DNA of 64,000 nucleotides from Escherichia coli. Its GTDB lineage: Bacteria > Pseudomonadota > Gammaproteobacteria > Enterobacterales > Enterobacteriaceae. The stretch lies in the NCBI GenBank assembly GCA_902500205.1, contig GCA_902500205.1_4868.1; one strand, written 5' to 3'. The number at the start of each line of letters is the position of its first letter. Position 1 is the stretch's first letter. A model generated the notes under the pieces. It saw only the letters and a program-made list of their open reading frames with translations, had not been told where the DNA came from and ran no database searches. The position numbers and the translations under genes are program-made. Shown one piece after another: positions 4,534 to 20,946 of this stretch.

Positions 4534-4555
4534 TGCAGGTTGCTCCAGTATATTT

Positions 4556-5672: not shown

Positions 5673-5687
5673 ATAAGCCTCCGTCGG

Positions 5688-6360: not shown

Positions 6361-6495
6361 TTTCGTCCAACCCCCAAATCGGTCTGCCGCGTTATGGGCT
6401 TTAGAGGCCACTTGCGCGTCGATACGGGGGCCTGTCGCCATGTTAGCTTCGACTATCTGGACGCGGTTTCTGACGTCTTTAATAGATATCGCCAT
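6103..6495 (-). CDS. Cys-rich precursor-like peptide C (130 aa)
   Basis: Leader-like N-terminus MAISIKDVRNRV; junction motif DCGGTCSWTC followed by about 21 Cys in C-x3-C repeats. Confidence 0.7.
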   Translation of the reverse strand: MAISIKDVRNRVQIVEANMATGPRIDAQVASKAHNAADRFGGWTKTQLDCGGTCSWTCSNGCSHGCSSCSGSCSASCIGSCSSTCGGNCSGCSGCSGGCSSSCTGNCTGGCGGSCSSSCSGACSGGCSGR

Positions 6496-6560: not shown

Positions 6561-7763
6561 TTACTTAGTACCCGCTTCAGCTTGAACATCGTCGCGCGAG
6601 GTGAGGTTGTTGTTAACGTGAACAGCAGCCTGCACAACACCGCCATACTGTTTATGGAGGTAATTCGGGTGTGGGTTATCCGCAGCCGCATGGTTCGCCA
6701 GATTCTGGTTTGCCTGCGAAATTGCGTTGGTGTTGTTTACAACCTGAGTTTTAAGACTGTTGATTTGTCCTTGCAGGTTATCAATTTGCTGTTGGAAGTC
6801 TTTGCCCTGATTCTCAAGATCCGTGACACGCTGATTTGTTTCATTCAGCGCAGACTGAAGATCGTTAACCTTCTTCTGTAATTGCAACACCAGAGAATTA
6901 AGGTTAGCTAATGCTAACGACATTTTCTGGTAATTTTGAGCAACCACGTTAAGCTGGTCGTTCCACGCGGCTAACGAAGCCACAATTGCATCGATGCGTT
7001 GCCCCAACGCTGTGTCTGCTGCTCTTAAGTCGCCGATATCTTTGATAGTGGCGTCAATGGCAGTCTGTACACTTTGAATCAGAGCACGAATCTCCGTCTC
7101 CGTCAGGCCATTAACCTGATGAATGTCGAGATTGTGTACGTTACCTTCGGCGTTGATGTGGGTATTTAAGGCGTCGAGGAAGTCGTTTTTCAGACCACCC
7201 AGAATACCTTTAATTTCTTCCAGCTGTACTGCAGAGCCGGAGTTAATCGCATCTTTAATCCCCGCGAGTACGGTAATGATATACTCAAAACCGTAGATAT
7301 CGCCAAGGTCTTTATACGTCGGTGCGGACGGGAACGTATCGGGTACGTTCCGAAGATCCTTGAAGTCCACCACGCGGTCTTCAATTTTCAACGACGCAAT
7401 CGCTTGTCGGATGCCTTCGACGTTCGCGGACTGAAAACCACCGACAACTTGCGCAGAGACTTCGATATCAGTAGGAATGGCCGTGTTAGTTACCACCACA
7501 CCCATGACCACTTCGCGGTTCTTGGTCATTTTCTGATATGCAGTATGTGCAAAAATCAGCTCGTAGTCTGTACCGCGTTTGTACGGGTAGACACCTGGTT
7601 TATTCGCAGCCGCCAAGCGGAAGGTATCCGCGTAGAAAGCTCCGTCAGGAAATGCAAAAGCCCGGTTAACTTTACCAGAACCTAACGTAATACGCCGCGT
7701 AACGGCGTTCGACGTTAATGTCCCGGTAAGGTCGAGCGGGTACTGATAAATGATTTCGGCCAT
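6561..7763 (-). CDS. Tail-fibre-like protein (about 400 aa) with coiled-coil region
   Basis: Shares the N-terminal module (..RGTDYEL..) with the three large fibre proteins; central heptad-like Q/N/L-rich segment; C-terminal NPHPNYLH motif. Start moved to internal ATG with GGAG RBS. Confidence 0.65.
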   Translation of the reverse strand: MAEIIYQYPLDLTGTLTSNAVTRRITLGSGKVNRAFAFPDGAFYADTFRLAAANKPGVYPYKRGTDYELIFAHTAYQKMTKNREVVMGVVVTNTAIPTDIEVSAQVVGGFQSANVEGIRQAIASLKIEDRVVDFKDLRNVPDTFPSAPTYKDLGDIYGFEYIITVLAGIKDAINSGSAVQLEEIKGILGGLKNDFLDALNTHINAEGNVHNLDIHQVNGLTETEIRALIQSVQTAIDATIKDIGDLRAADTALGQRIDAIVASLAAWNDQLNVVAQNYQKMSLALANLNSLVLQLQKKVNDLQSALNETNQRVTDLENQGKDFQQQIDNLQGQINSLKTQVVNNTNAISQANQNLANHAAADNPHPNYLHKQYGGVVQAAVHVNNNLTSRDDVQAEAGTK

Positions 7764-7810
7764 TGCCAAACTCCTTTGATTGGGGCTTCCTTGCCCCATA
7801 GCGCTAACTG

Positions 7811-10800
7811 TTAGGTACGGAACATAAGATTGACCTGGATAATATCAGGCTGTTGCCATCCTCTCTCGTTCACCCAATCGTGCGCAATCGTTAACGTAAG
7901 ATCATCGCCATCCCACGCCACGATCGGCGGTGGGAATAAACCCTGAGCGCCCGTGGTAACAACCGGAATTGCACCCGCCACATCCACAAACGTGTAGCTA
8001 CGGCTGTTCAAAACAACTGGTGTGCCGTAGGTCTCTCCCCCCAATGGTAAGATTTGAATCTTACTATCCGAAAGATCGGTGGTGATTGGTAGTCCCCCCG
8101 CGTCCGTGAAAAGCCAAGAGCAAATATGCTGGTTGGCCATCTCAAGCGCTGGGGAACTCAACACAGCAGAGAAAGTAAACGTACATGGCACGCCTGCGGG
8201 CAGAGAGTGCTGTTTGTGATACACGGTATGTGGTGTTGGCATTAGCACTTCTGGATTTTCTTCAATGTTAACATCCTTACCTTCCGCCTCGACGTTGTAT
8301 AAAAATCTATCTACCGTATCCCATGGGGCGATGTTGACATTAAAGGTCGTTTCTACTCCCGGTGTACCTGGGACGACGAATTTACTTTGTATCACCACTA
8401 TCATCATTCCTGAGGTCGGAGAGAAAGCAGGCGTAGGGATACCCACCCACTCCATTCCCAACGATGCCGCTTCACCGTTCTCATCGGCCGTTACCGTCGC
8501 AATTGTTGTAGGATGTTTCCAAAACGCCCCCGACTTGTTTGCCTGAGTAAACGCCGGCAAAGTTTTCAAGCCTTCGAAACGTTTGGAGACCATCGGTTTA
8601 CCGCGACGCTGTGCGTCAGATACGGTATAAAGCAACTGACTATCCAGATAGCCTTTCGTAGCATCGATAGACAAAGGACCCATCGCTTCTTTACGCAATG
8701 GTGCCAGTCTGCCCGTTGCCGCATCCCTTCCCACTTCCACATCATGCTTATTCTCAACCGCCGCATGTTCCAACAGTTGTTTCACCGCCCCCAATCGCTT
8801 AGCATGTTCGACGTTAGTCTCGACGACTCGCGACGAGCCCGTTTTAACATACCCGATATAGAGTTCCGTTTCAGTGTCTGGATGTTGAATCACGTCCATT
8901 ACGTACTTCGGTGTACCATTTTCTACCTTGGCGTGCAGGTAGAATGTCCGGTTCTGATGGTTTGTTGGAAATGCTGCGCTGAGGTCAATATACCACGTAG
9001 GCAGCTTATAAGTGCTCGAGCCGAAACGCAGGTCAACTTCCTCAGTCACATATACCAGCCAACCTTCAGCTGTTTCCACACCAGCAATGACAACCGATTC
9101 AGTCGGGCCACTAAAATTAGGAGCCGCGACAAAATCTCTCGACGACGTTGCGATACCACCACAATAGACGTAGTCGAGAGATGAGTTGTGTAGCATCACC
9201 TGATCACGATGAGCCAGATAAGCTGGGCTGACTGGAGTGTGTGACGGTGCCATACGTCCAACGCCGTGTGGAGCAGAAGAACGCGTCCAGGTACCATTAG
9301 ACAGCGTAAGACCAACAGCGTAGTTAAGCGCACCCAAGTCGCCAATCAGGCGCAAGGTTAACGTGTGTGGAAGATACAACCCGAACTGCGTACCATCTAC
9401 CGACACCAGTGTAGGTTGTCCCGGCCGGCGTGTTTTTCCTCCCGTTATCTCACCCAACGTAGCATAGTTCAAGTCATAGTCGAGGTTGTTATAGAAGTCA
9501 AACAAAGCCAATATCGCTGCGGGGAATGTTACCTGCCCGTTGCTGATTGTTGGTTTCAGTGTAAAGTAGTAGATATCCAACACGTTAACGTTGTTCACAG
9601 TACGCGTACATGCTACTTGTGCTAACGTGAGCGGTGTGGCCGTACCAATGCCGATGAACCAAACGGAGAACAATGCCTTTCCTGCGTTATTTGCGGCAAG
9701 GATAAATTCCGAAGCATAACCATTCGCAGCGCCTGCCGGTGCACCGTCGATGATCATCTGCTTCATCTTATTCCATTCGGCTTGTGACAGCGTCAACCGA
9801 TCGGCATGAATCGTGAAAGTGCCAGAAACGTTGTGGTAAGGGAATGTTTCTGGCCCTGTGCAATACCAGCCGTTTAACTCTGTACCAGGCGACGCCGGTG
9901 TAACAATGTGGCACATCTGCGACAGATTCTCGTACGTGGTAGAATCCACTACACGACGATTGTTAGTTGGTCCATACCCCGCTTTACCTGAGTAAGTGGT
10001 GTTCGGATCAAACTCAACTTCAATTGCCAAACGGGAACGTGGCTGTGACAACCAGATAAGTCTGGAATTCGCTCCCAGAGTCAGCGGATACGCCATACCC
10101 AGCTCGTAGATAGAACCACGACCTTGGTTTAACGTTACCGCACTAAACCTTCTGGCAGTGAAGTTGTAGTCGCACGACAGGTACTCGTACCAACTCACAC
10201 CGTCGTCTAACGTGGTAATCGTGACAATTGGCATTAGGTCACGATCGCCGGCATGTCCTTGCGAAACGATATATTTGTCTTGCGATGTTGCAAAGGTTTG
10301 GTTATTAGCTTGACCTTCGCCCCACTTCCGGCTCGGAATCCCAATCTCAGCACCACCGTTATAACGAACCGCGGTAAGATCAGCCACAATAGGGAATCGA
10401 TCAGCCCCTTCCAGCGTTACCGTCATTGAACTGCAATCAACAACAAAGCTTGACACCCATTGTTTAAAGCTAATCGTCTGCCCTGTGCTGGAGGCAAACC
10501 AGACTGTTGGCGTTAAACCAACACGAAATTTCAGCCCATCAACACCAATCGCGTGATTACACTCAGGACCATGTACAAAGTTGATTGCATTGTTCCACTT
10601 CGCTAACGCGTCTGCGTAGATCTGTGTAACTGGTGCTGGGAGCGCATCGGAAGGTGCACGTTTCTGTCCCTGTCGCAGATAAACGTTTTCACCCGACGTT
10701 AATATCCCGCCTGTTAACGCATCCGCCACAAACGTGTTGCTACCACCCGGATTAAGTTCGTTGAGTGCGATGCTACGCATACTCACGAAATAGTTACCGG

Positions 10801-12994
10801 AGGTAAGCACCGTACGCAACAGGTAGACACGTTCATTACAAACAATCAAATCGTCTGTAGAAGCGTTTGGAGCCCACGGTGCTGTCGTTACTGTGCCCGC
10901 ACCATTACCGTTCTTGTAATCACCCAACACCACTTTAACAACACGATGATGTTTTGCATGGTCAATCGTCCCATCGAAGATGACCAAGTAGTACGCACCG
11001 TCACTGCCTAAGCAGATCATTGCATCTGTACCGGTAATCACAATAGCAACCAGATTCACCCCAGGATACGCCGACATTCCAGCGGGTCGATAACGTACGG
11101 ACGTCTGCTGCATATTTTCCAGCGTATTGCTTGGCGACACATCGGCATAGGCGTAATAGATAGTCCAGTCACCTGGTGGATTCCCGTTAGAACCGTTACG
11201 GAGCGAGTAAACCTTACCAGACTCGTAACGCGCCAAACCTTTCTGCCAGGTTTGGTTTTTGGTATACCCTTCGTAGTTCCCCTGGACTGGTATAGGCAAG
11301 AAGTTATTGTTGCCGTACGATGATCCGCCGACAGTCCATGCGGGCAACAGCGTAGCAATCTTGTCATTCAGTGTGTCAATCTTTTGTTCAAGCAAGAAGC
11401 CCTGACGCGAAGTGACCATCTTATCCGAGGTAGTGTCGATTGCATCCCACAGTTTAGCCAAACCTGTAACAGACGTGGATGCGTACGGCACGTTATCGAG
11501 ATCTGCAATGGTGTGGGTGTGCGTTGTAAGCGCTTTGCCTGATAGCACGGTACGCAATGCGTTAGTAACTGGCTTTTCTAACGGTCCGGTATTGTTCATC
11601 TTCTCAATACCGAAATCTGCCGCGGTTAAGGTCAGATGCATCTGCCCGTTTGAATCTAATACAAACCCTTTACCGTTGACTGTATACGTGTCGTCCACAT
11701 ATCCGTCGAGTTTGTTCTTCAAGTCAGTAACAGCTTTTTGGGAAATCGCTGTGGACGCTGCAGCGGACGCCGAAAGGTTAGTAATCGCAAACAAACCCTG
11801 CACAGTTGTGGTTGCTGCAGGCAGCTCCGCATTCATGTAAAGTTTGTTTGTTTCTTTACCAGAGCCGTAAATCTTCAACGTGTCGCTGGACTTGAAGTAG
11901 GCGTTTGCTGGAAGTATCTTCACCGAGGTCAAGTACATCTTAACCATATCCGGTGTAACAAGATACACGCTATTATACACAGGTGCAAGCACACCCGCAT
12001 CATAATCGCCCCACTTGTCACCTGCTTTACCCGAGTGAACCCAAAGCGTGTTCAGACCAGCACTGAACTCCGTAGCGATGCCCGGTTCGTTGTTATCCTG
12101 GTCAGCTTTTAATACCAGCGGTTTTGTCGAGGTGATGATGAACTTCTCACCCTTCATGCTGATAACGTGACCAGACGTTGTTTGGAACGTAATCGCGTCG
12201 TTATTCAGAACACGCATACGGCCCAGTAAATCACCCAGGGTATTATCCAGAAGCATGTCAACGTGTTTCTGTTGGATGCCACTGGTAGACATTAACGTCA
12301 CTAGCTCTGCCAGGGTACGTCCGAATGCCTTAGTCGCATCTACGGCTTTGCCGAGTACCGGGAGAGCGCCAATGTCACCGCAGGTGTAACCATGTGCATT
12401 TTTAATCAGGTGGTGTTGATACATTTCGTCATCAAACACCTGCTTACCGTTCTGATAAATCAAATCGGTAACTTCGGCAAAAGCCTCATCCAGCTCGTGG
12501 GCGCGCTCTAAAATACCCAGACGGATATCTTCCAACGCCTTTACGATTTCATCGCGAAGAATCGCTTCTTCGAGGTCTTTTGGCGGGTCGATTGGCGAGA
12601 TAATCGGCGGATATTTCATCAGCTCAGACCAATCGCAGTTACGCGGGTCTTTCATATCTGTCTTAACCAGATACTTGCCGATTTCAGAAGCAGGGATGCG
12701 ATACTGTCGACCAACCGACAACAACTCGTATTCTACCTCTGTGGCGTTCAGCAGCATTATGCTGCCGTATATTGCATCGTTCTCAGCCTCGGCTAATTCC
12801 TGGAAGTAATGTCCTAGGAAATAATCGAGACCTTCTATTAACTTGCGTTTGGTTCCGGTTGTTTTATCGGTAACGGTTAACGTTAACCCGATGCGATAGA
12901 ACGGTGCTTCGACGGGAATGACCGCCGAATAACGGTTCGGGTAAGTAGCGGTACTGAGCGTACCGTTAAACTGCGCCGCATCTTCTCTCGGCAT
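7811..12994 (-). CDS. Large tail fibre protein (about 1727 aa)
   Basis: Shared N-terminal module; THTHTIADLDNV and SVTGLAKLW motifs resembling T4-type long-tail-fibre HxH and G-x-A-x-x-A-T repeats; start moved from track 13039 to internal ATG with GGAG RBS. Confidence 0.7.
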   Translation of the reverse strand: MPREDAAQFNGTLSTATYPNRYSAVIPVEAPFYRIGLTLTVTDKTTGTKRKLIEGLDYFLGHYFQELAEAENDAIYGSIMLLNATEVEYELLSVGRQYRIPASEIGKYLVKTDMKDPRNCDWSELMKYPPIISPIDPPKDLEEAILRDEIVKALEDIRLGILERAHELDEAFAEVTDLIYQNGKQVFDDEMYQHHLIKNAHGYTCGDIGALPVLGKAVDATKAFGRTLAELVTLMSTSGIQQKHVDMLLDNTLGDLLGRMRVLNNDAITFQTTSGHVISMKGEKFIITSTKPLVLKADQDNNEPGIATEFSAGLNTLWVHSGKAGDKWGDYDAGVLAPVYNSVYLVTPDMVKMYLTSVKILPANAYFKSSDTLKIYGSGKETNKLYMNAELPAATTTVQGLFAITNLSASAAASTAISQKAVTDLKNKLDGYVDDTYTVNGKGFVLDSNGQMHLTLTAADFGIEKMNNTGPLEKPVTNALRTVLSGKALTTHTHTIADLDNVPYASTSVTGLAKLWDAIDTTSDKMVTSRQGFLLEQKIDTLNDKIATLLPAWTVGGSSYGNNNFLPIPVQGNYEGYTKNQTWQKGLARYESGKVYSLRNGSNGNPPGDWTIYYAYADVSPSNTLENMQQTSVRYRPAGMSAYPGVNLVAIVITGTDAMICLGSDGAYYLVIFDGTIDHAKHHRVVKVVLGDYKNGNGAGTVTTAPWAPNASTDDLIVCNERVYLLRTVLTSGNYFVSMRSIALNELNPGGSNTFVADALTGGILTSGENVYLRQGQKRAPSDALPAPVTQIYADALAKWNNAINFVHGPECNHAIGVDGLKFRVGLTPTVWFASSTGQTISFKQWVSSFVVDCSSMTVTLEGADRFPIVADLTAVRYNGGAEIGIPSRKWGEGQANNQTFATSQDKYIVSQGHAGDRDLMPIVTITTLDDGVSWYEYLSCDYNFTARRFSAVTLNQGRGSIYELGMAYPLTLGANSRLIWLSQPRSRLAIEVEFDPNTTYSGKAGYGPTNNRRVVDSTTYENLSQMCHIVTPASPGTELNGWYCTGPETFPYHNVSGTFTIHADRLTLSQAEWNKMKQMIIDGAPAGAANGYASEFILAANNAGKALFSVWFIGIGTATPLTLAQVACTRTVNNVNVLDIYYFTLKPTISNGQVTFPAAILALFDFYNNLDYDLNYATLGEITGGKTRRPGQPTLVSVDGTQFGLYLPHTLTLRLIGDLGALNYAVGLTLSNGTWTRSSAPHGVGRMAPSHTPVSPAYLAHRDQVMLHNSSLDYVYCGGIATSSRDFVAAPNFSGPTESVVIAGVETAEGWLVYVTEEVDLRFGSSTYKLPTWYIDLSAAFPTNHQNRTFYLHAKVENGTPKYVMDVIQHPDTETELYIGYVKTGSSRVVETNVEHAKRLGAVKQLLEHAAVENKHDVEVGRDAATGRLAPLRKEAMGPLSIDATKGYLDSQLLYTVSDAQRRGKPMVSKRFEGLKTLPAFTQANKSGAFWKHPTTIATVTADENGEAASLGMEWVGIPTPAFSPTSGMMIVVIQSKFVVPGTPGVETTFNVNIAPWDTVDRFLYNVEAEGKDVNIEENPEVLMPTPHTVYHKQHSLPAGVPCTFTFSAVLSSPALEMANQHICSWLFTDAGGLPITTDLSDSKIQILPLGGETYGTPVVLNSRSYTFVDVAGAIPVVTTGAQGLFPPPIVAWDGDDLTLTIAHDWVNERGWQQPDIIQVNLMFRT

Positions 12995-13027
12995 TGCAAA
13001 CACTCCTAATCTGTAATAAAACGGAGA

Positions 13028-13088
13028 CCGCCCTCCCAATAACGGAAGGGCGGTTTACCTACGGACTACCCGCCCGTAGGCAGTCCGT
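13028..13088 (-). terminator. Inter-fibre-gene structured region, candidate partial terminator
   Basis: Two adjacent GC-rich inverted repeats (accgccctcc/ggaagggcggt and cctacgg/ccgtagg, with an alternative acggact/agtccgt pairing), then a U-rich stretch on the minus-strand transcript. Confidence 0.4.
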
Positions 13089-13089
13089 C

Positions 13090-16000
13090 CTAAGAGGCCC
13101 ACTCACCCGAGTTGTTGCCTTCGTTTCTACGTTCAGTATCCAACGTTTGTAAAATCCAATCCCATGTCCTGGTGGGGATGTGGAATGGATTACGCTTCTC
13201 AATGAGAATCGTTTCGCCACCAGTGCGAAGTTCCACCGGTGTCGTTTCAGTAATCACGAACATCGGATTACCACTACTACCTACGCCATTAATAGTGAAC
13301 TTCGCTTGCAACGGCGGCACAGAACCTTCCGGAGGCACGAACACGATGTGAATTGGCTGCATCGGTTTCGTGCGGGCAAGAGTCCTGGATATCTGAACAG
13401 CTGTTGTCGATGCACTGAAAGGTATAACATTACCCGGAATTTTCTCACTACCCACGATGATATATCCAGGGTAGTTAGAGAGCATTGTCCCATTTACCGA
13501 CACAAAACGCTCAGTTTGAGTTGGGCGATAAGCCCGCATAAAGCCGTACTTCCATTCACCACCGTTAGACGTATAGTCTGCAGGAGCCGACTCAAGTAGC
13601 GGAGCACCACGTTTCTGCAGCCCTTTATAAAACGGCGCTGGGAGTTTACCGTTCGGTGCAAGTTCCGGATAACCCTCACTTGCAGCAGACATCGTGATGT
13701 ATTCCGTAACCGGGTGATCAACGTTATCTCCAAATGACGCAAAAGGTACCGTTGTTACTGTCATCTCCTCGTGGTCGGAAGACTGTCTATCTGGCGTCCT
13801 TTCAATATACGACTCAAACAGTGAACGTAAATAATGGAAACGATTTATATCCACATCTGAGATGATCGGCTGCATCAAACCGTGGTTAATAGTCACGTTG
13901 TCTCGAGTTTCAATACCGGAAACGTGGATGGCTAGCGCCCCACCTTTAAAGTAATCGATCGCATCAAACGGAATGTCGTATTCCATTTCGTAAACCTGCA
14001 CCAGCGGATTGGCTATCAACTTAGAAACCATTGAGATGCGCAGTACCTGCGTATCAACAATGTATCGATAACGTACAAGCCAACGATCTCCAAGCGGCGC
14101 AAGCTCACTATCGGTATGAACCGAAAGAAAATCTAAACACTCGGTAGATTGGCTCGTCAGGTTTTTAATTACCCTCGGATTTTCAAGCACCTTATTTGTA
14201 ACACTGCCCTGCGTGGTCGAGATGATGCCTCCAGTTGCTTGGTTATAAGGAGACCTGATGAAGCCACAATTCAATTCTGGACGATTGCCACTCCATCTCA
14301 GTACCCTAGTCATGCTTTTATCATCTGCAGACGGGGCCATGAAGTTTAATGTGATATCGCGAACGCGAACTGTTTGTGCTTCCGACAAATCAACATCGAC
14401 CACCACAGAACCTTCAAACGTCGCCATCCCTTTTTCTTTCGGGTTGCTTGGTGTAAACCAGCAGTACGGTGATGCGCTTTCTGTGGAGACAACCGCTCCA
14501 ACAAACACTAGGCTTGAAATGGTACTATCAAATTTATAATCGAATAACCCTCGGTCTAATCGAATATAGTGGTTACCAGAAACTGGACTATTAGGGTACG
14601 CATAAAGCCACTGTTTAGGCAACGGATCGACTTTGTTTAGCGGTAACATTTTTGGGTTATCCGTCAACGACCAGTCGGCATTACTCACTCCGTGCGCCAG
14701 ACGTGTTTCGAAGTGCCGTTTAAGTTCGGACGCCATGCCAAAATCAAACGTCGTTTCAAACTCGTAAGTCGTACCTGCAACCAATCCCGTCTCGGGTACA
14801 TCAATATGTCCGATATAGCCGCGTTCCAAGTTAATACCTTCCGTGTCCACAATAGGTTCGGCGCGCGAATATAACGCATCGGTTATCATGTTCACATAGA
14901 GGTAATGCCTTAAACCATTCGGCGTCTTAACAAACTCCTGCAGGCGGGCAACTTTGGTGTTTTTATCCGAGGCCCCAACCGCAAAGTCACCGTCGTAAAT
15001 TGTGAAACGAATTGCGGCTGCTTTAGCGCTATCGTTACACTCGGCACGGAATGCTAAGCAGTGTTGCTTCCACCCCTCCTTGACAGTCGCCTCCAGATAC
15101 CCCGCTTCTGTAATACCCGCACCGATAATTTCACCGTCCAGATAAACAGAAACAGCACCACCGCCACGAACCCAAATCCGTAGTTTACCAGAGTCGCAAC
15201 GAACCCACGTTTTCGCCAAGAGGTTAACGACTGACAAATCACCCATTCCGGTTGTCGTTAAACCAATCTGCGCACCGTAGTTCGTTTCCGGGACGGCAAC
15301 CTCAAACCCACTAAAATCAATACCGTCACCGATATTAATTACCGCGTTCTGCCACGTTCTTTCCATACGGTTATCTGGAGAGAACCACTGGAACATCGGG
15401 GTGGTTTGCAGGTCTATCGAACCAGATACCGTCCCCTCTTTACGTGCACCATTTAACAGATAGAAATAATTCAAATCCGTTACGGCGAGGGTGGTACGTG
15501 TAGATCCCACAGTCCAAGTCTTACCACGCACAGCGGCAAAATCGGTCACGGAATCCTCTTTCGCGTTTGCTAGCGCAGCTGCAACTACGTCTAAACGTTT
15601 TGACAAATCGTTCAGAACGTTCGGGGTAACGCCGCGATTACCCGACAAGCCGTTTAGGTTGGTAGAATATCGAGCGATACCGGGAACTGTTTGAGAAGCC
15701 GTTGGGATCTGTAAATCGGCGAAGTTGTGATGGTGACCTTTATCACTAAGACCGGTAACTGCTTCTGCCAACGCATCAGAAAGTGGTTTATCGACGTCAG
15801 CTGTGTTATCAGCCAAGTCTAAACCTAAATCCTTTTTCGTCAGCGTTCGACTACCAGTGTTCATCGGCTGGTTATTCAGCAGCGTTGTCTTCCTGACGTA
15901 CGAAGACAGGTCGCCCTCATACGGCAAAAGCGCCGACGGGGTGACTGCTTGTCCCTTGACTACATCGCTCGGCTTATCAGTCAGCGTCACAACGCCTGGT

Positions 16001-17220
16001 TCAGAGGTCGTCGCGGGTTTGGCTGTGACCTTCCCGGTGACGGGATCGGCTTTTGACCCTTTACCCGTGAAAGTGATGCCGTTCACCCCGCTAATGTACA
16101 GTTTGTTGTCATCCGGGTCAACGGTACCACCGCCGGTACCAGGGTCTTGTTGATAGCCCATGAGAGCAGTTGTGGTCAGTAACGTCGTGCCATTAAGCGT
16201 CAGCTTATCCATCCCCAAGGCACTGCCAGTCGACTCAATACGTAATGTATTGATGCCTGCTTTCCACTCCATAAACCGGACGGTTCCAGTAGTGTCGGCA
16301 TACCCACACGCCAACACAACAGAGCCATTAGATTTAAGAGTGAATGCCTCAGCAGAGAACACAATTTCGGATTCACCAGCAGGAGAACGGAACAGGGCAC
16401 GAGTACCAGATATCGTCGCGTTAAACACCCCTTTGGATTCTTTCGATACCCATTTAGAAATGTACTTGTCGATATCCGATTGTTGCAGACCCAGTGCACG
16501 GACCTCGCTGGTTAACTGACGCAACGTCTTTCCATACGCCAGGAAAGTATCTGGCGTTTTCAGGTTGACAGGATGCGCACCGGCCTGCGCCGCGGTAGTC
16601 CCATGAGGGTTAGTCGACGCAATGTGTCCGGGGTAGTTAAATGTGGCGATTTCAGTTCCTAAGCCCAAAACCGCATCTTTCAGCTCAGTAAGCTTTTCAC
16701 GAATCTGCTCGTTGGCCGCCCCGGCATCTAACTCCACATCATGCACTGCAGAGGCAACATACTTTTTATTCAGCATGTCTGACCAAGCTACCGCTGCAGG
16801 GGTGGCTGGGTACAGGGAAGGTCGATTACCTAAAAGCAGCCAATCTGCAGCCGTTGGATTGTTGAGTGCCTTAATTAGCTCATCTAACATCTCAATCAAA
16901 CCACTGTAAAACGTACCCCCGAGCATCTGGCCTTCAAAGACCACCGCACCACGCAGTTTAGGGTTAATAAGATGCACCCCGCAAAACACCGGGGTCGTCA
17001 CCGAGTCGTCCAACGGTGTTAAAGCATACTCCAGCTCATAGTCCGTCCCGCGGGTAAGCGGTATGGACGAGCCGGCGAGCCTTACCACCAATCCTTCGAA
17101 AAACGGGCGATGATCTAGCATCACCACCCGATCGTTAGGATTGTCGGAGTCGATGATACGTTCCTCGATGAAGTGACACTCAGGATTTACACCCCGAGGA
17201 TCGTAAGGATACGTTTTCAT
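13090..17220 (-). CDS. Large tail fibre protein (1376 aa)
   Basis: Shared N-terminal module (RGTDYELEY); GHHHNFADLQIP and VPGIARYST motifs; GGAG RBS upstream. Confidence 0.7.
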   Translation of the reverse strand: MKTYPYDPRGVNPECHFIEERIIDSDNPNDRVVMLDHRPFFEGLVVRLAGSSIPLTRGTDYELEYALTPLDDSVTTPVFCGVHLINPKLRGAVVFEGQMLGGTFYSGLIEMLDELIKALNNPTAADWLLLGNRPSLYPATPAAVAWSDMLNKKYVASAVHDVELDAGAANEQIREKLTELKDAVLGLGTEIATFNYPGHIASTNPHGTTAAQAGAHPVNLKTPDTFLAYGKTLRQLTSEVRALGLQQSDIDKYISKWVSKESKGVFNATISGTRALFRSPAGESEIVFSAEAFTLKSNGSVVLACGYADTTGTVRFMEWKAGINTLRIESTGSALGMDKLTLNGTTLLTTTALMGYQQDPGTGGGTVDPDDNKLYISGVNGITFTGKGSKADPVTGKVTAKPATTSEPGVVTLTDKPSDVVKGQAVTPSALLPYEGDLSSYVRKTTLLNNQPMNTGSRTLTKKDLGLDLADNTADVDKPLSDALAEAVTGLSDKGHHHNFADLQIPTASQTVPGIARYSTNLNGLSGNRGVTPNVLNDLSKRLDVVAAALANAKEDSVTDFAAVRGKTWTVGSTRTTLAVTDLNYFYLLNGARKEGTVSGSIDLQTTPMFQWFSPDNRMERTWQNAVINIGDGIDFSGFEVAVPETNYGAQIGLTTTGMGDLSVVNLLAKTWVRCDSGKLRIWVRGGGAVSVYLDGEIIGAGITEAGYLEATVKEGWKQHCLAFRAECNDSAKAAAIRFTIYDGDFAVGASDKNTKVARLQEFVKTPNGLRHYLYVNMITDALYSRAEPIVDTEGINLERGYIGHIDVPETGLVAGTTYEFETTFDFGMASELKRHFETRLAHGVSNADWSLTDNPKMLPLNKVDPLPKQWLYAYPNSPVSGNHYIRLDRGLFDYKFDSTISSLVFVGAVVSTESASPYCWFTPSNPKEKGMATFEGSVVVDVDLSEAQTVRVRDITLNFMAPSADDKSMTRVLRWSGNRPELNCGFIRSPYNQATGGIISTTQGSVTNKVLENPRVIKNLTSQSTECLDFLSVHTDSELAPLGDRWLVRYRYIVDTQVLRISMVSKLIANPLVQVYEMEYDIPFDAIDYFKGGALAIHVSGIETRDNVTINHGLMQPIISDVDINRFHYLRSLFESYIERTPDRQSSDHEEMTVTTVPFASFGDNVDHPVTEYITMSAASEGYPELAPNGKLPAPFYKGLQKRGAPLLESAPADYTSNGGEWKYGFMRAYRPTQTERFVSVNGTMLSNYPGYIIVGSEKIPGNVIPFSASTTAVQISRTLARTKPMQPIHIVFVPPEGSVPPLQAKFTINGVGSSGNPMFVITETTPVELRTGGETILIEKRNPFHIPTRTWDWILQTLDTERRNEGNNSGEWAS

Positions 17221-17232
17221 TCAAAAATCTCC

Positions 17233-20200
17233 TTAATCACGAATAATAAGTGTTCGACCTGACGTGTTTTTCGGATTGAACGTCATCATCTTGGACGGGT
17301 GTGCCACCAGTGGAATTTTACCTGTATCCACTGGTCGGAACGAACTGTATGAATAGTTGCACATCGCGCTGTTCATCTCATTGATCGTTGAACCTGCATC
17401 CACCACGCCAGTAAAGAATCTTGCGCGGTTTAAGCCGGAATAGTTAATCGCATAGTCAAGGAACGTGGCGTAATAACGATTCTTTGTCGGCATCGTGTTC
17501 AGGTTAGCGTAAGTCAAACGCGCTTCTGTGTCGGAACTAAACAAACCACCCACGCCGTGATAAATCGGCGTACTCGGATCGGTAATCAGTTTCGTCAAGT
17601 CGATATAGTCAGGACGGAGACGGGTAGACAAATCCTCAGTCCACGACTCGCCGGTCGACTGCAAGGTGTATTTCAGCGTCTTTGTTGTCGCGGTTAGCGT
17701 CAGCTCAAAGTTAATCGTTTTGGAATCGATGTTAATCGTTCCCACGAACGAAATACCGTCCGCTGTTCGCGCGTGGCTGAAACGCACCGATGGATTAAGT
17801 GCCGTCCAGTCATGGCCGGCACCAGTAACGCCATTCAGACCAATAACAACCTGTGCAGCACGTCCGTAGTTAACCGCGATTCCCGCATACGTGCTCACGC
17901 CGCCTGGAGTGGTAATACGTCCTGCGGTGCGTGCGACGAGTACAGAAATACGGTGCATGAACGTGGCCGAGTGATGGCAACACCCAATTACCGTTTCTAG
18001 CACACTGTCCGCTGTTGCGGTTAAAGGTGTCCACGTTGCGGTAATGCCGTTATTCTGGAACATCGGGAATGTGTTGTGGACAAAACGATAATCGGTTACA
18101 GATAAACTGGTTGTTTTAAACGTCCATTTATCAGCAGCCGGATCGTAGTCCGCTTTCAACATAGGTGTATAGCTGCTAGCCTGCGCGTAACGCCAATCGG
18201 CATCTATACGTTTTGTACCCGGTGCGCCCGTGGACCACACAGGCCCGCCAGTACCGTAAGTAAATCCGAATTCAGCTTGCGTCATGCCCCGACGAATATG
18301 GGCGTTATCATCCTCGATATGCTCGCCTAATTCACGGAACTCACCTAAACGCGTCACGTTGCGGATTTCTACAAAAACCACACCGGTTTCACTGGTGATG
18401 ATGGAACCTATTTTGGTCATCGTCTCAGTTTCTGCCGTGTTTGGATTTTCGTAGATAATGTACTTGCCGTCATCGCCCGCCGCGTCAACATACACGCCAA
18501 ACTCAGCATCTTCGTGCGTCGCTGGGAATAGCTCCGCCAAGTTAAATGTGGAGAGAGGTACTTTGTACTCGCGACCAACGAAATAATCGTTCGCTTTAAT
18601 AGTAACCATCCAGTCGGTGTAAGTGATGCCGTTTTCAATGATGTCCGTGCCGGGTAAACCGTAACGAATAATGTTGATTGAAGCACCAGAGTCGACTGTC
18701 TTCGCAACCTTCTCTATCTCTGTGATGGCGTCCGCCTGTCGGATGACCTCACCGCCGTCTAATGCCAGCGTGGCATCGTCAACCGCGGTGCCGAACTGTA
18801 CTAAACCGAACTCCGTCGTTGTTGCACGCTTAATCCCGAGCGCAGCAGGAGTGTGTGTGTGACCGACGACTGCGTACTTGTCCAGCTCAGCTCGTTGGAG
18901 CGGGGAAATCGGCAATTGCACATCTGGGATGTTCTGTACGTTCGATAAGCCGAAGTTAGTTTTATCGATGTAAATAGAACTCGTCAGTGGCATGTCGTTG
19001 ATGTACGATTTAACAGCAACCAACTTGCCCGTAAACTGCTGATCCAATTTCTTGATGAGTGCCGGCGTTGCGGCCAAGTCCTCACGATCACCGAATTCAG
19101 TAGCCAACAAACGGACAGCCATCAGGCCAAGGTCGTCGGACTCCGGTGGAACAAAAGTACAAATGAACGGAACAGACTGAATACCGTTGCCGTTAATGGT
19201 TACAGTAGCTGTGGATGTTCCGTAAAACAGTCCATCACCACCTGACTCGTTACCCGGCAGGTACGGCCCGACCGTAGTAGGGTCCAATAGTTTCTTACCG
19301 TTGAACTCCAATCCACGGGAATCCGGATAAAGGATGAGTTGGTTAGCCCCACCTTGCCATGTAATCGGATTGTTCCCGGCGTTAACGGTTTGCGAATCGC
19401 GTCCAATAAAACGGATAACCTTCGGGTCAACCGTGAATTGTGCACCCACTCCTTCAGACTCATCGGTACCCACTGCTGACGTTATCGAAGTCAGGCCAGG
19501 CTTCATACCGAAAGTGCCGTTGATAGACTGTGCAGCCGCCGGTAAACGTAAAAGCTTATTCGCCAGCGTTGACAGTTTCGGCAACAGATTGTTAACGTAA
19601 TCTGTCAGCTGCGGTTGCGTTTTTCCGTATACCAGTGTCGCGTCCGAAGCAATACCGTTATTCTCCAAAGCACGGATTGCGCCCCACGAATCGCGATGTG
19701 GGTTATCCTTGCGCGGCACGTGCGTATGTGCCGGTGCATCACGGTACAGCTTATCGACAATCTGGTGATATTTTACCAGCAGCTGGTACACGTCGTTGTT
19801 AACGTCAGGTGCCGGTGCGCCTGGTAATGAACGAATCTGGACGTAATCGTTCTCACCTGCCCACCAGTTTAGGTTGACGCCCGATTTAAACTTCAACCAT
19901 TTTGCGACATCAGTTTTCTGATACCCTGGTGCAAATTCGCTCGGTGGGTTGTCAACGTTAAAGCTGTAGTTAACGGTTTGCTTGCTTGTTTTAACGGTAA
20001 TGTCGTAAACGCCGTTACCTTCGCGTCTGACCACGCTAAGCTCAATATCACCCGCCAACTCGGTATCGGTCAGGCCAGTCGTCAACGTATAGCTGTAATT
20101 AGACGAACCAGAACCAATCGCCGTCGTTAAGGTAAGATAAATCGCGCGTTGCTTCAACTGAAGACGCAGGATACTTGTCCCACCGTTTGCGTAACAGAGC

Positions 20201-20946
20201 ATCCAATCGATCAACTCGCCTGGGTTTAACGTTGTTTCCGGTGGAATGCTCGGTAAACGGTGTTTTACCGCTAACGAATACGCATTGAACGTCGTGTTCT
20301 GGTAAGATAACGAATAACGACGACGAGACGCGTTATACGTGTAGCCGCCAGTACCGTCGTACGTCGCATACTGCTCGGATGTGATAAGCGTGACACCGGC
20401 GCGATATTGAAGGTCTAACGTGTTACGAGCAATCGGGTCAACGCGACTGATCGCTTCACCGAGCTTAGCGCCAACCGCAACAATGGCTTCCATCAACTCG
20501 GATTCGCCACGCCAGTTTTCCCAGTCGAACTTAATATCGACCGGTGGGAAATATAAATCCCCAATGACGTTATCCCATTGGCAGTCCACGGGATAGCGAT
20601 CTTTATTCGCTTCTCGTTCTGCGGCGATCATTTCTGCAGTGGCTTCACCGATGCCAATTGCGTGGTAATCGAGTGTAAAGCCACTCTGATATTTCGGGTT
20701 GGTAATCCACACACCACCATGACAAACATGGCCAGTGCGTGCCATGCCCGTAACGTACGCATGGGTGATGACGTAATCATCACCTAATGTTAATTTCTTG
20801 CCGCCACTCTTGACCACCAGGGATGTGGTATAAAAGGGGGCGTGTGCGGGGAACAACATCCGGTACTTAGTACCGATCGGCGTTACCGCTTCACCGGTCT
20901 GCATATTCCCCGGTTCTTGATAGTGCGGGTCAGGGACGACAGCCAT
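17233..20946 (-). CDS. Large tail fibre or baseplate-proximal fibre protein (1237 aa)
   Basis: Shared N-terminal module (LGDDYVITH); AHTHVPRKDNPHRDSWGAIRAL and GHTHTPAALGIKRATTTEFGLVQFGT motifs; GGAG RBS upstream; first gene of the minus-strand operon. Confidence 0.7.
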   Translation of the reverse strand: MAVVPDPHYQEPGNMQTGEAVTPIGTKYRMLFPAHAPFYTTSLVVKSGGKKLTLGDDYVITHAYVTGMARTGHVCHGGVWITNPKYQSGFTLDYHAIGIGEATAEMIAAEREANKDRYPVDCQWDNVIGDLYFPPVDIKFDWENWRGESELMEAIVAVGAKLGEAISRVDPIARNTLDLQYRAGVTLITSEQYATYDGTGGYTYNASRRRYSLSYQNTTFNAYSLAVKHRLPSIPPETTLNPGELIDWMLCYANGGTSILRLQLKQRAIYLTLTTAIGSGSSNYSYTLTTGLTDTELAGDIELSVVRREGNGVYDITVKTSKQTVNYSFNVDNPPSEFAPGYQKTDVAKWLKFKSGVNLNWWAGENDYVQIRSLPGAPAPDVNNDVYQLLVKYHQIVDKLYRDAPAHTHVPRKDNPHRDSWGAIRALENNGIASDATLVYGKTQPQLTDYVNNLLPKLSTLANKLLRLPAAAQSINGTFGMKPGLTSITSAVGTDESEGVGAQFTVDPKVIRFIGRDSQTVNAGNNPITWQGGANQLILYPDSRGLEFNGKKLLDPTTVGPYLPGNESGGDGLFYGTSTATVTINGNGIQSVPFICTFVPPESDDLGLMAVRLLATEFGDREDLAATPALIKKLDQQFTGKLVAVKSYINDMPLTSSIYIDKTNFGLSNVQNIPDVQLPISPLQRAELDKYAVVGHTHTPAALGIKRATTTEFGLVQFGTAVDDATLALDGGEVIRQADAITEIEKVAKTVDSGASINIIRYGLPGTDIIENGITYTDWMVTIKANDYFVGREYKVPLSTFNLAELFPATHEDAEFGVYVDAAGDDGKYIIYENPNTAETETMTKIGSIITSETGVVFVEIRNVTRLGEFRELGEHIEDDNAHIRRGMTQAEFGFTYGTGGPVWSTGAPGTKRIDADWRYAQASSYTPMLKADYDPAADKWTFKTTSLSVTDYRFVHNTFPMFQNNGITATWTPLTATADSVLETVIGCCHHSATFMHRISVLVARTAGRITTPGGVSTYAGIAVNYGRAAQVVIGLNGVTGAGHDWTALNPSVRFSHARTADGISFVGTINIDSKTINFELTLTATTKTLKYTLQSTGESWTEDLSTRLRPDYIDLTKLITDPSTPIYHGVGGLFSSDTEARLTYANLNTMPTKNRYYATFLDYAINYSGLNRARFFTGVVDAGSTINEMNSAMCNYSYSSFRPVDTGKIPLVAHPSKMMTFNPKNTSGRTLIIRD

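What the first reader, a model, noticed from the sequence alone, without database searches (positions are those of the whole stretch)
6561..20946. Four tail-fibre-like proteins share one N-terminal module but have unrelated distal regions, one about 1.7 kaa
All four proteins (about 400, 1727, 1376 and 1237 aa) carry a similar N-terminal segment (pattern A-P-F-Y ... G-x-D-Y-x-L) but diverge downstream. Each has HxH-containing motifs and G-x-A-x-x-A-T-like repeats reminiscent of T4-type fibre shaft repeats. This looks like a set of alternative or branched fibres attached through a common adaptor domain, which would imply multiple receptor specificities.
Basis: partly seen in the sequence, partly recalled or inferred. 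Interest (0 to 1): 0.5.

Follow-up and report, generated by a model that had tools for sequence, protein, structure and literature searches.

The report
Jumbo-phage baseplate fibre gene set
These four genes are the already-described baseplate fibre proteins of an SPN3US-type giant Salmonella/E. coli phage, which share a phiKZ gp131-like docking domain and carry different sugar-binding-like tips, so the finding is real but not new.

Summary
The window is an SPN3US-like jumbo phage (97.8% nt identity to phage EC001, 95.2% to SPN3US over the whole region). The four minus-strand genes are orthologues of SPN3US gp167-gp170.

The shared N-terminal module is real. It is about 170 aa, and an HMM built only from phiKZ gp131/133/134/135 recognises all four (E 8e-11 to 8e-22).

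"Unrelated distal regions" is only partly right:
- gp168/169/170 share about 550 aa, not 120.
- gp168 and gp170 share a further distal domain.
- The T4-type repeat idea fails: there is one conserved HxH site in three of the four proteins and no repeat array.

Published work already names gp168-170 "paralog family C", tail proteins related to phiKZ gp131. The divergent neighbour gp171 is the published phiKZ gp130 homologue. In phiKZ, gp130 roofs docking sites that each hold six gp131-like N-domains.

New here:
- gp167 is a fourth member, of the short gp133-135 class.
- gp168 is predicted to carry a beta-propeller, and gp169 lectin-like beta-sandwiches.
- A 900-nt cassette in gp169 exists as two alleles about 70% identical to each other.

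Most likely these proteins form a co-assembled baseplate fibre complex rather than four independent fibres, but this is inferred.

Side observation: unannotated CxxxC-repeat peptide genes lie next to radical SAM maturase genes just downstream.

The parts
6561..7763 (-). pA = SPN3US gp167 orthologue, 400 aa (99% aa identity). It is the short-class member. In 412-aa ORF numbering it has an N-domain at aa 17-188, an NVH motif at aa 220, a coiled coil at ~230-375 and an NPH motif at 375.
   Evidence: Its best phiKZ match is gp135 (E 5e-13). Coiled-coil Pfam noise covers aa 230-375.
7236..7751 (-). gp131-like N-terminal docking domain of pA.
   Evidence: Leave-one-out HMM E 2.7e-24 and phiKZ-only HMM E 7.5e-22; alignment.
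7811..12994 (-). pB = SPN3US gp168 orthologue, 1727 aa (96.4% aa identity).
   Evidence: The ATG at 12994 has a TAGGAG ribosome-binding site. In SPN3US it is a tail protein rated 'expected essential'.
12497..12988 (-). gp131-like N-terminal docking domain of pB (aa 3-166).
11315..12400 (-). Shared proximal shaft region of pB (aa ~199-560). It runs from the NAH motif to the THTHT / ASTSVTG motif and is homologous to the same region in pC and pD.
   Evidence: Weak PTR and actinophage minor-tail matches at aa 454-531.
10133..11239 (-). Predicted beta-propeller of pB (aa ~586-954). The model has 28 strands, consistent with seven four-stranded blades.
8744..9106 (-). Distal domain shared by pB (aa 1297-1417) and pD (aa 765-883).
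   Evidence: BLASTP E 3e-9. Also conserved in the B and D orthologues of phiEaH2, CR5 and pVa-21.
7814..8530 (-). C-terminal beta-rich tip of pB (aa ~1489-1727). It is the more variable part of the protein among close relatives.
   Evidence: AF2 block-mean pLDDT mostly 50-86. 78-93% aa and 86-91% nt identity to SPN3US, against 96-100% elsewhere. Replaced in CR5.
13027..13054 (-). Strong terminator-like hairpin (12 bp stem, 8 G-C pairs, T-rich tail) in the only sizeable intergenic gap, between pC and pB.
13090..17220 (-). pC = SPN3US gp169 orthologue, 1376 aa (90.4% aa identity, the most diverged of the four).
16717..17220 (-). gp131-like N-terminal docking domain of pC (aa 1-168).
15496..16611 (-). 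Shared proximal shaft region of pC (aa ~204-575; NPH motif to GHHHN / ASQTVPG motif).
13195..15267 (-). Distal string of predicted lectin / jelly-roll-like beta-sandwich domains of pC (aa ~652-1342).
13761..14660 (-). Dimorphic cassette inside pC (aa ~853-1153). It is 62-73% nt identical to SPN3US while the flanks are 93-98% identical.
   Evidence: The window allele is 99-99.7% identical in SaP7, EC001, JN03 and Lh1B. The other allele (70.5-71.4% identical) is in SPN3US, SEGD1, and the SPFM and SPLA records matched at full length (11 and 3 records), phage 1252, MET_P1_082_240 and Proteus phage 7.
17233..20946 (-). pD = SPN3US gp170 orthologue, 1237 aa (97.9% aa identity).
20446..20946 (-). gp131-like N-terminal docking domain of pD (aa 1-167).
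19762..20364 (-). pD-specific insertion (aa ~195-395) between the N-domain and the shaft. It evolves fast (14-34% identity to phiEaH2, flanks 64-92%).
   Evidence: It is not a second copy of the N-domain.
18772..19728 (-). Shared proximal shaft region of pD (aa ~407-725; AHTH / NPH motif to GHTHT / ATTTEFG motif).
17236..18654 (-). Distal part of pD (aa 765-1237). The first ~120 aa are homologous to pB 1297-1417. The rest is unique and is replaced in CR5 after aa ~896.
   Evidence: No Pfam or PDB sequence match.
21014..22276 (+). pE = SPN3US gp171 orthologue, 420 aa. It is the homologue of phiKZ gp130, the baseplate protein under which the fibres dock in phiKZ, and it is transcribed divergently from the fibre genes as in phiKZ.
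   Evidence: BLASTP E 3e-15 over the full length. Same gene arrangement. Essential tail protein in SPN3US. gp130 role from PMC13250141.

Best explanation
The four genes encode the baseplate fibre set of an SPN3US-type chimallivirus. They are the counterpart of phiKZ gp131/gp133/gp134/gp135. Each protein starts with a ~170-aa gp131-like domain followed by a helix. These domains anchor the proteins to the outer baseplate beneath the gp130 homologue, which is encoded divergently at 21014-22276.

There are two classes. The 400-aa protein belongs to the short gp133-135 class. The three long proteins belong to the gp131 class. The long proteins continue with a homologous ~290-aa shaft segment bounded by an N-P/A-H motif and a single HxH plus A-S/T-x-x-x-x-G motif. 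Each then ends in its own globular domains:
- a beta-propeller plus beta-sandwich tip in the 1727-aa protein;
- lectin-like beta-sandwiches in the 1376-aa protein;
- an extra insertion and a unique tip in the 1237-aa protein.

The tips are the host-facing, fast-evolving parts.

The N-domains most likely co-assemble into one mixed complex per docking site, as proposed for phiKZ. One possible composition is three copies of the short protein plus one of each long protein. They are less likely to form four independent fibres.

Shown: homology, domain layout, synteny, and where the variation lies. Taken from the literature on 90-99% identical orthologues: virion tail location. Inferred: co-assembly, stoichiometry and receptor binding.
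For: Identity of the phage and genes:
- 95-98% nt identity over all 14,386 bases to SPN3US-like phages.
- Orthologues are SPN3US gp167-171.

N-domain homology to phiKZ gp131/133/134/135:
- BLASTP E 5e-13 to 9e-7.
- phiKZ-only HMM E 8e-11 to 8e-22.
- The short protein clusters with gp133-135 and the long ones with gp131.

The gp130 homologue is adjacent and divergent (E 3e-15).

Literature:
- gp167-171 are virion proteins depleted more than 70-fold in tailless particles.
- gp168-170 were named paralog family C, related to phiKZ gp131.
- gp171 is essential and was reported as the ORF130 homologue.
- phiKZ has 12 fibres, each docked under gp130 through six gp131-like N-domains and a six-helix bundle. 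These were fitted as gp131x3 + gp133 + gp134 + gp135.

Conserved gene set:
- The ordered set D-C-B-A with one-to-one orthologues is kept in phiEaH2, CR5 and pVa-21.

Abundance:
- PSM per kDa is 8.5, 11.5 and 8.0 for the long proteins, 20.2 for gp167 and 11.7 for the 12-copy portal (computed).

Distal folds:

Where variation lies:
- Variation is concentrated distally.
- The C-terminal tips are replaced in CR5.
Against: - No structure or interaction data exist for this phage group.
- The phiKZ hetero-hexamer itself rests on 4.4-4.6 A maps fitted with AlphaFold3 models.
- The number of N-domain paralogues next to the gp130 homologue is not fixed. It is 4 here and in phiKZ, 3 in Deimos-Minion and an EL-like phage, and 2 in Goslar and RP31. 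A 3+1+1+1 rule is therefore not general.
- PSM per kDa is a crude measure. Sheath and tube, with equal copy numbers, differ two-fold.
- Shaft lengths are the same in all paralogues and all phages (277-293 aa). This gives no test of in-register co-assembly.
- The structure models are of moderate confidence (mean pLDDT 62 and 55).
- The phiKZ gp131 propeller was not among the listed fold matches.
- The only reported SPN3US receptor is the flagellum. None of the four proteins has been tied to it.
Confidence: 0.55

Rival explanations
1. It proposes four independent homo-oligomeric fibres or spikes. Each attaches through the same adaptor domain to equivalent baseplate sites, giving the phage several alternative receptor specificities, as in multi-tailspike phages.
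For: - A common N-domain is followed by different distal domains.
- The same N-domain heads proteins of 159-1899 aa in the 150 best hits listed, out of 3112 representatives matched.
- phiKZ offers 12 docking sites.
- The distal domains have lectin or propeller folds typical of receptor-binding proteins.
- The aligned HxH site would also suit homotrimers.
- Paralogue number varies from 2 to 4 between lineages.
Against: - The set and its order are invariant, with one-to-one orthologues, across four genera with hosts from Salmonella to Vibrio. Alternative receptor-binding proteins are usually gained and lost.
- The 400-aa member has no distal binding domain, only a coiled coil.
- phiKZ density shows six N-domains per site, fitted with different paralogues.
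- The long proteins are about as abundant per kDa as the 12-copy portal, not several-fold higher (a crude measure).
Confidence: 0.3
2. The proteins are peripheral baseplate scaffold components with no direct role in receptor recognition. Host binding would be done by other proteins.
For: - PHROG labels them only 'virion structural protein'.
- phiKZ gp131 was first located at the baseplate periphery.
- No receptor has been assigned to any of them, and SPN3US is reported to use flagella.
Against: - The distal halves evolve far faster than the proximal halves (20-40% vs 70-90% identity to phiEaH2).
- The pC cassette exists as two alleles about 70% identical to each other within otherwise 95-100% identical genes.
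- The tips are replaced in CR5.
- The folds are carbohydrate-binding-like.
- A scaffold would be expected to be evenly conserved.
Confidence: 0.08
3. This is a T4-type segmented long tail fibre, in which different proteins are joined end to end (as gp34-gp37 are) and have HxH-rich shaft repeats.
For: - Large fibre-sized proteins are encoded in a row.
- Each long protein has one HxH motif followed by an A-S/T-x-x-x-x-G motif.
Against: - No Pfam, PHROG or PDB sequence match to T4 fibre families.
- There is a single HxH site, not an array, and G-x-A-x-x-A-T occurs at most once.
- All four proteins carry the same N-terminal docking domain. This argues for parallel attachment, not end-to-end joining.
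Confidence: 0.02

Closest known systems
SPN3US 'paralog family C' (gp168, gp169, gp170), with gp167 and gp171 (Thomas et al. 2016, PMC5105663; Ali et al. 2017, PMC5694885; PMC10052503)
   Same: These are the same genes, at 90-99% aa identity and in the same order. The published work already describes them as low-abundance tail proteins and baseplate/fibre candidates related to phiKZ gp131. It also names gp171 as the essential ORF130 homologue.
   Different: - The papers list three family members. Here gp167 is shown to carry the same N-domain, making it a fourth, short-class member.
- The extent of shared sequence (~550 aa), the pB/pD shared distal domain, the predicted folds and the dimorphic pC cassette are not in the passages read.
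phiKZ fibre module gp131/gp132/gp133/gp134/gp135 docked under gp130 (Sycheva et al. 2012; structural atlas PMC13250141)
   Same: - The N-terminal domain is homologous.
- The NPH-type motif follows the N-domain.
- There are four N-domain paralogues next to a divergently transcribed gp130 homologue.
- One member is predicted to carry a propeller. phiKZ gp131 has a seven-bladed propeller.
   Different: - The class sizes are inverted. phiKZ has one long protein (771 aa) and three short ones (~460 aa). Here there are three long ones (1237-1727 aa) and one short one (400 aa).
- The long proteins here have an extra ~290-aa shaft and much larger distal parts.
- There is no gp132-like mini-protein.
- No sequence similarity beyond the N-domain.
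- The gp131 propeller was not recovered in the fold searches.
Branched multi-tailspike systems with shared N-terminal adaptor domains (CBA120, rV5 and G7C types); recalled from memory
   Same: The idea is the same: several receptor-binding proteins with different distal domains are held on one baseplate through related N-terminal attachment modules.
   Different: - No sequence match to solved structures of those proteins or to their Pfam families.
- The attachment domain here belongs to the gp131 family.
- The distal parts are not predicted to be beta-helix depolymerases.
Propeller-type receptor-binding proteins of staphylococcal phages phi11 and P68
   Same: Weak fold matches of the pB model to these receptor-binding proteins (Foldseek E 1e-3 to 5e-3). 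The pB domain is a beta-propeller placed distally in a fibre-like protein.
   Different: The matches are weak (TM 0.07-0.15 normalised to either chain). The phages are unrelated, and the stems and attachment domains differ.
T4 long and short tail fibres (gp34-37, gp12)
   Same: Both have an HxH motif in a fibre shaft. In phiKZ the authors compare the baseplate fibres functionally with T4 short fibres.
   Different: There is no homology, no repeat array, and the attachment logic is different.

Membership tests
phiKZ gp131-family baseplate fibre proteins | N-terminal ~170-aa gp131-like domain at the extreme N terminus | tested here: met
   All four proteins match. BLASTP to gp131/gp135 gives E 5e-13 to 9e-7. 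An HMM built from the phiKZ proteins alone gives E 7.6e-11 to 7.5e-22, always at aa 1-~185.
phiKZ gp131-family baseplate fibre proteins | Encoded next to, and divergently from, a gp130 homologue (the docking platform protein) | tested here: met
   Window 21014-22276 (+) matches phiKZ gp130 at E 3e-15 over the full length. The arrangement is the same in phiKZ, phiEaH2, CR5 and pVa-21.
phiKZ gp131-family baseplate fibre proteins | Physical location in the tail or baseplate of the virion | not testable with these tools
   Literature on the SPN3US orthologues (90-99% identical) shows them present in wild-type virions. They are depleted more than 70-fold in tailless particles (PMC10052503 supplement).
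phiKZ gp131-family baseplate fibre proteins | C-terminal seven-bladed beta-propeller (gp131 itself) | tested here: inconclusive
phiKZ gp131-family baseplate fibre proteins | Co-assembly of six N-domains of different paralogues plus a six-helix bundle at each docking site | not testable with these tools
   Only single-chain prediction was available. The supporting evidence is indirect: a conserved four-gene set, a helix-rich segment after each N-domain and rough mass-spectrometry abundances.
SPN3US paralog family C | Mutual homology of gp168, gp169 and gp170 orthologues | tested here: met
   B-C E 4e-25, B-D 1e-6 and 3e-9, C-D 2e-6. PHROG cross-hits.
T4-type tail fibres (gp34/36/37, gp12) | Sequence homology to T4 fibre families, or arrays of HxH-containing shaft repeats | tested here: not met
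   No Pfam or PDB sequence hits. There is one conserved HxH site per long protein and none in pA. G-x-A-x-x-A-T occurs at most once.
Branched tailspike sets (CBA120 / rV5 / G7C type) | gp10-like or other known N-terminal adaptor domains, and beta-helix depolymerase bodies | tested here: not met
   No match to any solved-structure sequence at E <= 1 or to Pfam. The predicted distal folds are propeller and beta-sandwich, not beta-helix.

The most novel reading that the evidence does not exclude
The fibre base is a conserved '3 long-class + 3 short-class' hexamer of gp131-like N-domains that different lineages fill in mirror-image ways. phiKZ would use a gp131 homotrimer plus one each of gp133, gp134 and gp135. 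SPN3US-type phages would use a gp167 homotrimer plus one each of gp168, gp169 and gp170.

The three long chains would then form a single heterotrimeric shaft whose HxH site is built from three different chains. The shaft would splay into three different receptor-binding arms: propeller, lectin-like and unique. One fibre would thus carry three specificities.
Probability: 0.25. Interest if true: 0.55.

Novelty: already known. Interest (0 to 1): 0.25.

Why it matters
Host recognition by nucleus-forming jumbo phages is poorly understood, and SPN3US is their genetic model in enterobacteria. Knowing which parts of gp167-170 anchor, which form the shaft and which face the host gives concrete targets for host-range engineering. 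The main targets are the dimorphic pC cassette and the pB tip. It also gives targets for interpreting a future baseplate map. The core observation is already published, so the added value is a refinement and not a discovery.

Tried and rejected
- **Second N-domain in pD.** A MAFFT alignment suggested that the pD insertion (aa ~195-395) was a degenerate second copy of the N-domain. The N-domain HMM hits pD only once, at aa 1-167, so this was rejected.
- **Shaft-length co-variation.** I looked for co-variation between paralogues as a test of in-register heterotrimer formation. The distance from the NxH to the HxH motif is 277-293 aa in every paralogue and phage, so the test has no power.
- **'Always four paralogues'.** This was tried as an argument for fixed stoichiometry. 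It holds for the SPN3US-like group, phiKZ and pVa-21. It fails for Goslar and RP31 (2) and for Deimos-Minion and an EL-like phage (3).
- **PDB sequence and profile searches.** Searches for all four proteins and three family alignments found nothing except coiled-coil noise.
- **Pfam.** Scans of the distal segments and of five distant orthologues (CR5 and pVa-21) found nothing.
- **Profile comparison with gp131.** Comparing the pB and pC families with full-length phiKZ gp131 recovers only the N-domain.
- **Fold search for the gp131 propeller.** It was not among the listed matches.
- **Not done.** The third large homologue search was not spent.
Full report
**What the window is.** The 14.4-kb region matches SPN3US-like jumbo phages (genus Seoulvirus) end to end. 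Identity is 97.8% to Escherichia phage vB_EcoM_EC001, 97.6% to Salmonella phage JN03 and 95.2% to SPN3US. In 23 records one match covers at least 80% of the query. The four minus-strand ORFs are the orthologues of SPN3US gp167 (400 aa), gp168 (1727 aa), gp169 (1376 aa) and gp170 (1237 aa). Their amino-acid identities are 99.3, 96.4, 90.4 and 97.9%. I call them pA, pB, pC and pD. The first ORF is 412 aa from its first ATG. The ATG at 7763 has an AAAGGAG ribosome-binding site and matches the annotated 400-aa start and the alignment with relatives.

**Checking the observation: the N-terminal module.** The shared module is real and well above chance.
G-x-D-Y-x-[L/I]) is present in all four proteins. 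It is also present in phiKZ gp131, gp133, gp134 and gp135.
- Pairwise BLASTP is significant for pA-pC (3e-8), pB-pC (4e-25), pB-pD (1e-6) and pC-pD (2e-6). It is not significant for pA-pB or pA-pD.
- I therefore ran a non-circular test. An HMM of the N-domain built without a protein's own orthologues finds that protein with E 1.5e-17 to 2.7e-24. An HMM built from the four phiKZ proteins alone finds all four with E 7.6e-11 to 7.5e-22, always at residues 1 to about 185.

**Checking the observation: the distal regions.** The statement that these regions are unrelated needs correcting.
- pB, pC and pD are homologous over about 550 residues (pB 31-558 against pC 39-574).
- pD carries an insertion of about 210 residues after the N-domain (pB 166-520 against pD 387-723).
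- pB 1297-1417 matches pD 765-883 at E 3e-9. This domain is also conserved in the B and D orthologues of other phages.

**Checking the observation: the motifs.**
- HxH occurs once in pB (aa 492), once in pC (aa 496), twice in pD (aa 407 and 696) and not at all in pA.
- The counts are no more than shuffling gives.
- The site near aa 490 is at a homologous position. It is followed by an A-S/T-x-x-x-x-G motif and is kept in orthologues from Erwinia, Cronobacter and Vibrio phages.
- G-x-A-x-x-A-T occurs once in pB, once in pD and nowhere else, so there is no T4-like repeat array.
- Pfam has no family for any of the long proteins beyond a weak 'phage tail repeat' match at pB 480-502. The Protein Data Bank holds no sequence relative.

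**What is already published.**
- SPN3US gp168, gp169 and gp170 were named 'paralog family C'. They were described as low-abundance virion proteins absent from a tailless mutant and as baseplate or fibre candidates similar to phiKZ gp131 (PMC5694885; PMC10052503).
- In the 2023 proteome, gp167, gp168, gp169, gp170 and gp171 are all assigned to the tail. Their normalised counts in tailless particles are 0.4-1.3% of wild type.
- gp171 is essential and was reported as the phiKZ ORF130 homologue. gp168 is 'expected essential' (PMC5105663).
- The 2026 phiKZ structural atlas (PMC13250141) describes twelve fibres, each docked beneath gp130. [quoted passage not shown] The fit used 4.4-4.6 A maps and AlphaFold3 models.
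- SPN3US is reported to use flagella as its receptor (PMC11428620).
- The core of the finding is therefore known.

**Relation to phiKZ, tested here.**
- pA matches phiKZ gp135 best (E 5e-13). pB, pC and pD match gp131 best (1e-8, 9e-7, 4e-9).
- The ORF at 21014-22276 on the plus strand matches gp130 over its full length (E 3e-15).
- It is transcribed divergently from the fibre genes, exactly as gp130 is from gp131-135.
- A neighbour-joining tree of N-domains puts the short proteins with gp133-135 (support 90). It resolves the A, B, C and D orthologue groups (support 72-100). The support values come from a simple rooted-clade count and are rough.
- There are thus two old classes, short and long. 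phiKZ has one long and three short members. This phage has three long and one short.

**Conservation of the set.**
- The order gp130-like, D, C, B, A, with one-to-one orthologues, is kept in Erwinia phage phiEaH2, Cronobacter phage CR5 and Vibrio phage pVa-21.
- An HMM scan of six-frame ORFs finds exactly four N-domains in each of these and in phiKZ. It finds three in Deimos-Minion and an EL-like phage, and two in Goslar and RP31 (within 20 kb of the hit). Several paralogues per genome is the rule. Four is not universal.
- Across a library of 1.84 billion representatives the N-domain profile finds 3112 proteins at E <= 1e-3. In all 150 best hits the domain lies at the extreme N terminus (39-201 in one case), and the hits span 159 to 1899 residues.
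- In the phage collection it occurs in 242 records. The 60 records sampled across the ranking are almost all genomes of about 200-320 kb.

**Domain layout and predicted folds.**
- Each protein has the N-domain, then a helix-rich stretch, then an N-P/A-H motif of the kind repeated in phiKZ gp131-135.
- pA continues as a long coiled coil and ends.
- The long proteins continue with about 290 residues up to the HxH site and then diverge.
- For pB residues 560-1727, only ten sequences were available and mean pLDDT was 55.
- Within that model, residues 27-395 (pB 586-954) have block-mean pLDDT mostly 60-90 with a few short dips. They contain 28 strands, as expected for seven four-stranded blades.
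- Foldseek matches were weak (E about 1e-4). They included the propeller receptor-binding proteins of phages phi11 and P68.
- The crystal structure of the phiKZ gp131 propeller was not in either list. Profile comparison with gp131 recovers only the N-domain. A propeller is therefore predicted, but homology with the gp131 propeller is not shown.
- The pB tip (model residues 930-1160) is a further beta-rich domain.

**Where the variation lies.**
- Against phiEaH2 the first 550-600 residues of each long protein are 60-90% identical and the distal parts 15-45%. The pD insertion is 14-34% identical between flanks of 64-92%.
- In CR5 the similarity stops at pB 1411, pC 942 and pD 896. The C-terminal tips are different there.
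- Against SPN3US, nucleotide identity is 93-100% everywhere except two stretches. One is 13761-14660 (62-73%), inside the predicted lectin-like domains of pC. The other is 7761-8360 (86-91%), mostly at the pB tip but running into the pB/pA junction.
- The first stretch is a sharply bounded cassette with two alleles. The window type is 99-99.7% identical in SaP7, EC001, JN03 and Lh1B. The other, 70.5-71.4% identical, is in SPN3US, SEGD1, the SPFM and SPLA records matched at full length, phage 1252, MET_P1_082_240 and Proteus phage 7.
- Both E. coli isolates carry the window type, but so do two Salmonella isolates. No host association can be claimed.
- This pattern is what one expects of host-facing domains.

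**How it most likely works.**
- The N-domains anchor the proteins under the gp130 homologue.
- The shared shaft projects the distal domains, and the distal domains contact the host surface.
- I think a mixed complex per docking site is more likely than four separate fibres, for three reasons. The set is conserved as a unit across genera. pA has no binding domain of its own. The phiKZ map shows six N-domains per site.
- One specific possibility is three pA plus one each of pB, pC and pD, the mirror image of the phiKZ proposal.
- Published spectral counts point the same way but weakly. PSM per kDa is 20.2 for gp167 against 8.5, 11.5 and 8.0 for gp168-170, and 11.7 for the 12-copy portal. Sheath and tube, with equal copy numbers, differ two-fold on the same scale.
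- All of this paragraph is inference. Nothing here tests assembly directly.

**Verdict.**
- The feature is already known as SPN3US paralog family C and the phiKZ gp131 family.
- The additions here are a fourth member, the true extent of shared sequence, predicted distal folds and a dimorphic cassette.
- Interest is low to moderate.

**Seen in passing, and possibly more novel than the finding.**
- Immediately downstream of pA, on the same strand, lie three tandem ORFs: 6103-6495 (130 aa), 5688-6092 (134 aa) and 5466-5672 (68 aa).
- Each has an ordinary N-terminal part of about 45 residues followed by a Cys/Ser/Gly-rich tail with CxxxC spacing. The two long ones have 20-21 cysteines and are 45% identical to each other.
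- They are followed by a 295-aa ORF and two radical SAM genes.
- The 442-aa radical SAM protein matches the NCBIfam model 'radical SAM peptide maturase, CXXX-repeat target family' best (E 3e-36, below the curated cut-off), then PapB-type ranthipeptide maturases.
- The two long Cys-rich ORFs weakly match the partner model 'Cys-rich repeat-containing protein' (19.6 and 17.1 bits; cut-off 20).
- The same two ORFs are conserved in SPN3US, phiEaH2 and CR5. The listed annotations there cover at most a shorter ORF (SPN3US), differently placed small ORFs (phiEaH2) or an opposite-strand ORF (CR5) in that interval.
- Near full-length matches to this radical SAM protein (at least 80% of its length) are confined to 64 records. 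Those listed are all SPN3US-like phages of Salmonella, Proteus and Erwinia.
- I found no paper in the library that describes this.

Noticed in passing
window 5466-6495 (-), with 4556-5443 (-), 3619-4569 (-) and 2298-3626 (-): Three tandem ORFs (130, 134 and 68 aa) have a normal ~45-aa N-terminal part and a Cys/Ser/Gly-rich CxxxC-repeat tail (20-21 Cys in the long ones; these two are 45% identical to each other). They lie just upstream of a 295-aa ORF and two radical SAM genes. The 442-aa radical SAM protein best matches the NCBIfam 'CXXX-repeat target family' peptide maturase (E 3e-36, below cut-off) and then PapB ranthipeptide maturases. The two long ORFs weakly match the partner 'Cys-rich repeat' model. 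This looks like a RiPP-type precursor-plus-maturase cluster in a jumbo phage. The ORFs are conserved in SPN3US, phiEaH2 and CR5, where the listed annotations do not show them at full length. Near full-length matches to the maturase are limited to 64 phage records, and those listed are SPN3US-like. No paper was found.
   Followed up: partly
window 13761-14660 (inside pC): A sharply bounded 900-nt cassette exists as two alleles about 70% identical to each other, within genes that are otherwise 93-100% identical among Seoulvirus isolates. The window allele is shared by SaP7, EC001, JN03 and Lh1B. The other allele is in SPN3US, SEGD1, the SPFM and SPLA records matched at full length, phage 1252, MET_P1_082_240 and Proteus phage 7. 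It is probably a recombinational swap of a lectin-like domain. No clear link to host genus.
   Followed up: partly
window 13027-13054 (-): A strong terminator-like hairpin (12-bp stem, 8 G-C pairs, T-rich tail) lies in the 95-nt gap between pC and pB. This is the only sizeable gap within the four-gene block. It could be an attenuator or an RNA-stabilising element.
   Followed up: no
proteins P0008-P0120: Homologues of the pC distal region (~35% identity, ~1393 aa) sit on contigs of up to ~220-227 kb (many on shorter ones) from assemblies labelled Salmonella enterica, E. coli and Shigella flexneri. A second, common jumbo-phage lineage seems to travel with enterobacterial isolates.
   Followed up: no
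window 7763-7799: The first ATG of the pA ORF (7799) is probably not the start. The ATG at 7763 has an AAAGGAG ribosome-binding site and matches the SPN3US annotation and the alignment with relatives.
   Followed up: yes
L008 (Vibrio phage pVa-21) 17069-17464 and 18916-19344: In the Vibrio relative, two tail-fibre-assembly (chaperone) genes flank the short paralogue. The enterobacterial phages have no such genes there and instead carry the Cys-rich ORFs downstream.
   Followed up: partly
several SPFM phage records: Some deposited SPFM genomes match the fibre genes only in many short pieces, or with odd protein lengths (for example 1712, 1458 or 689 aa for the gp168 orthologue). This suggests frameshift or assembly errors in those records and not real differences.
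   Followed up: no
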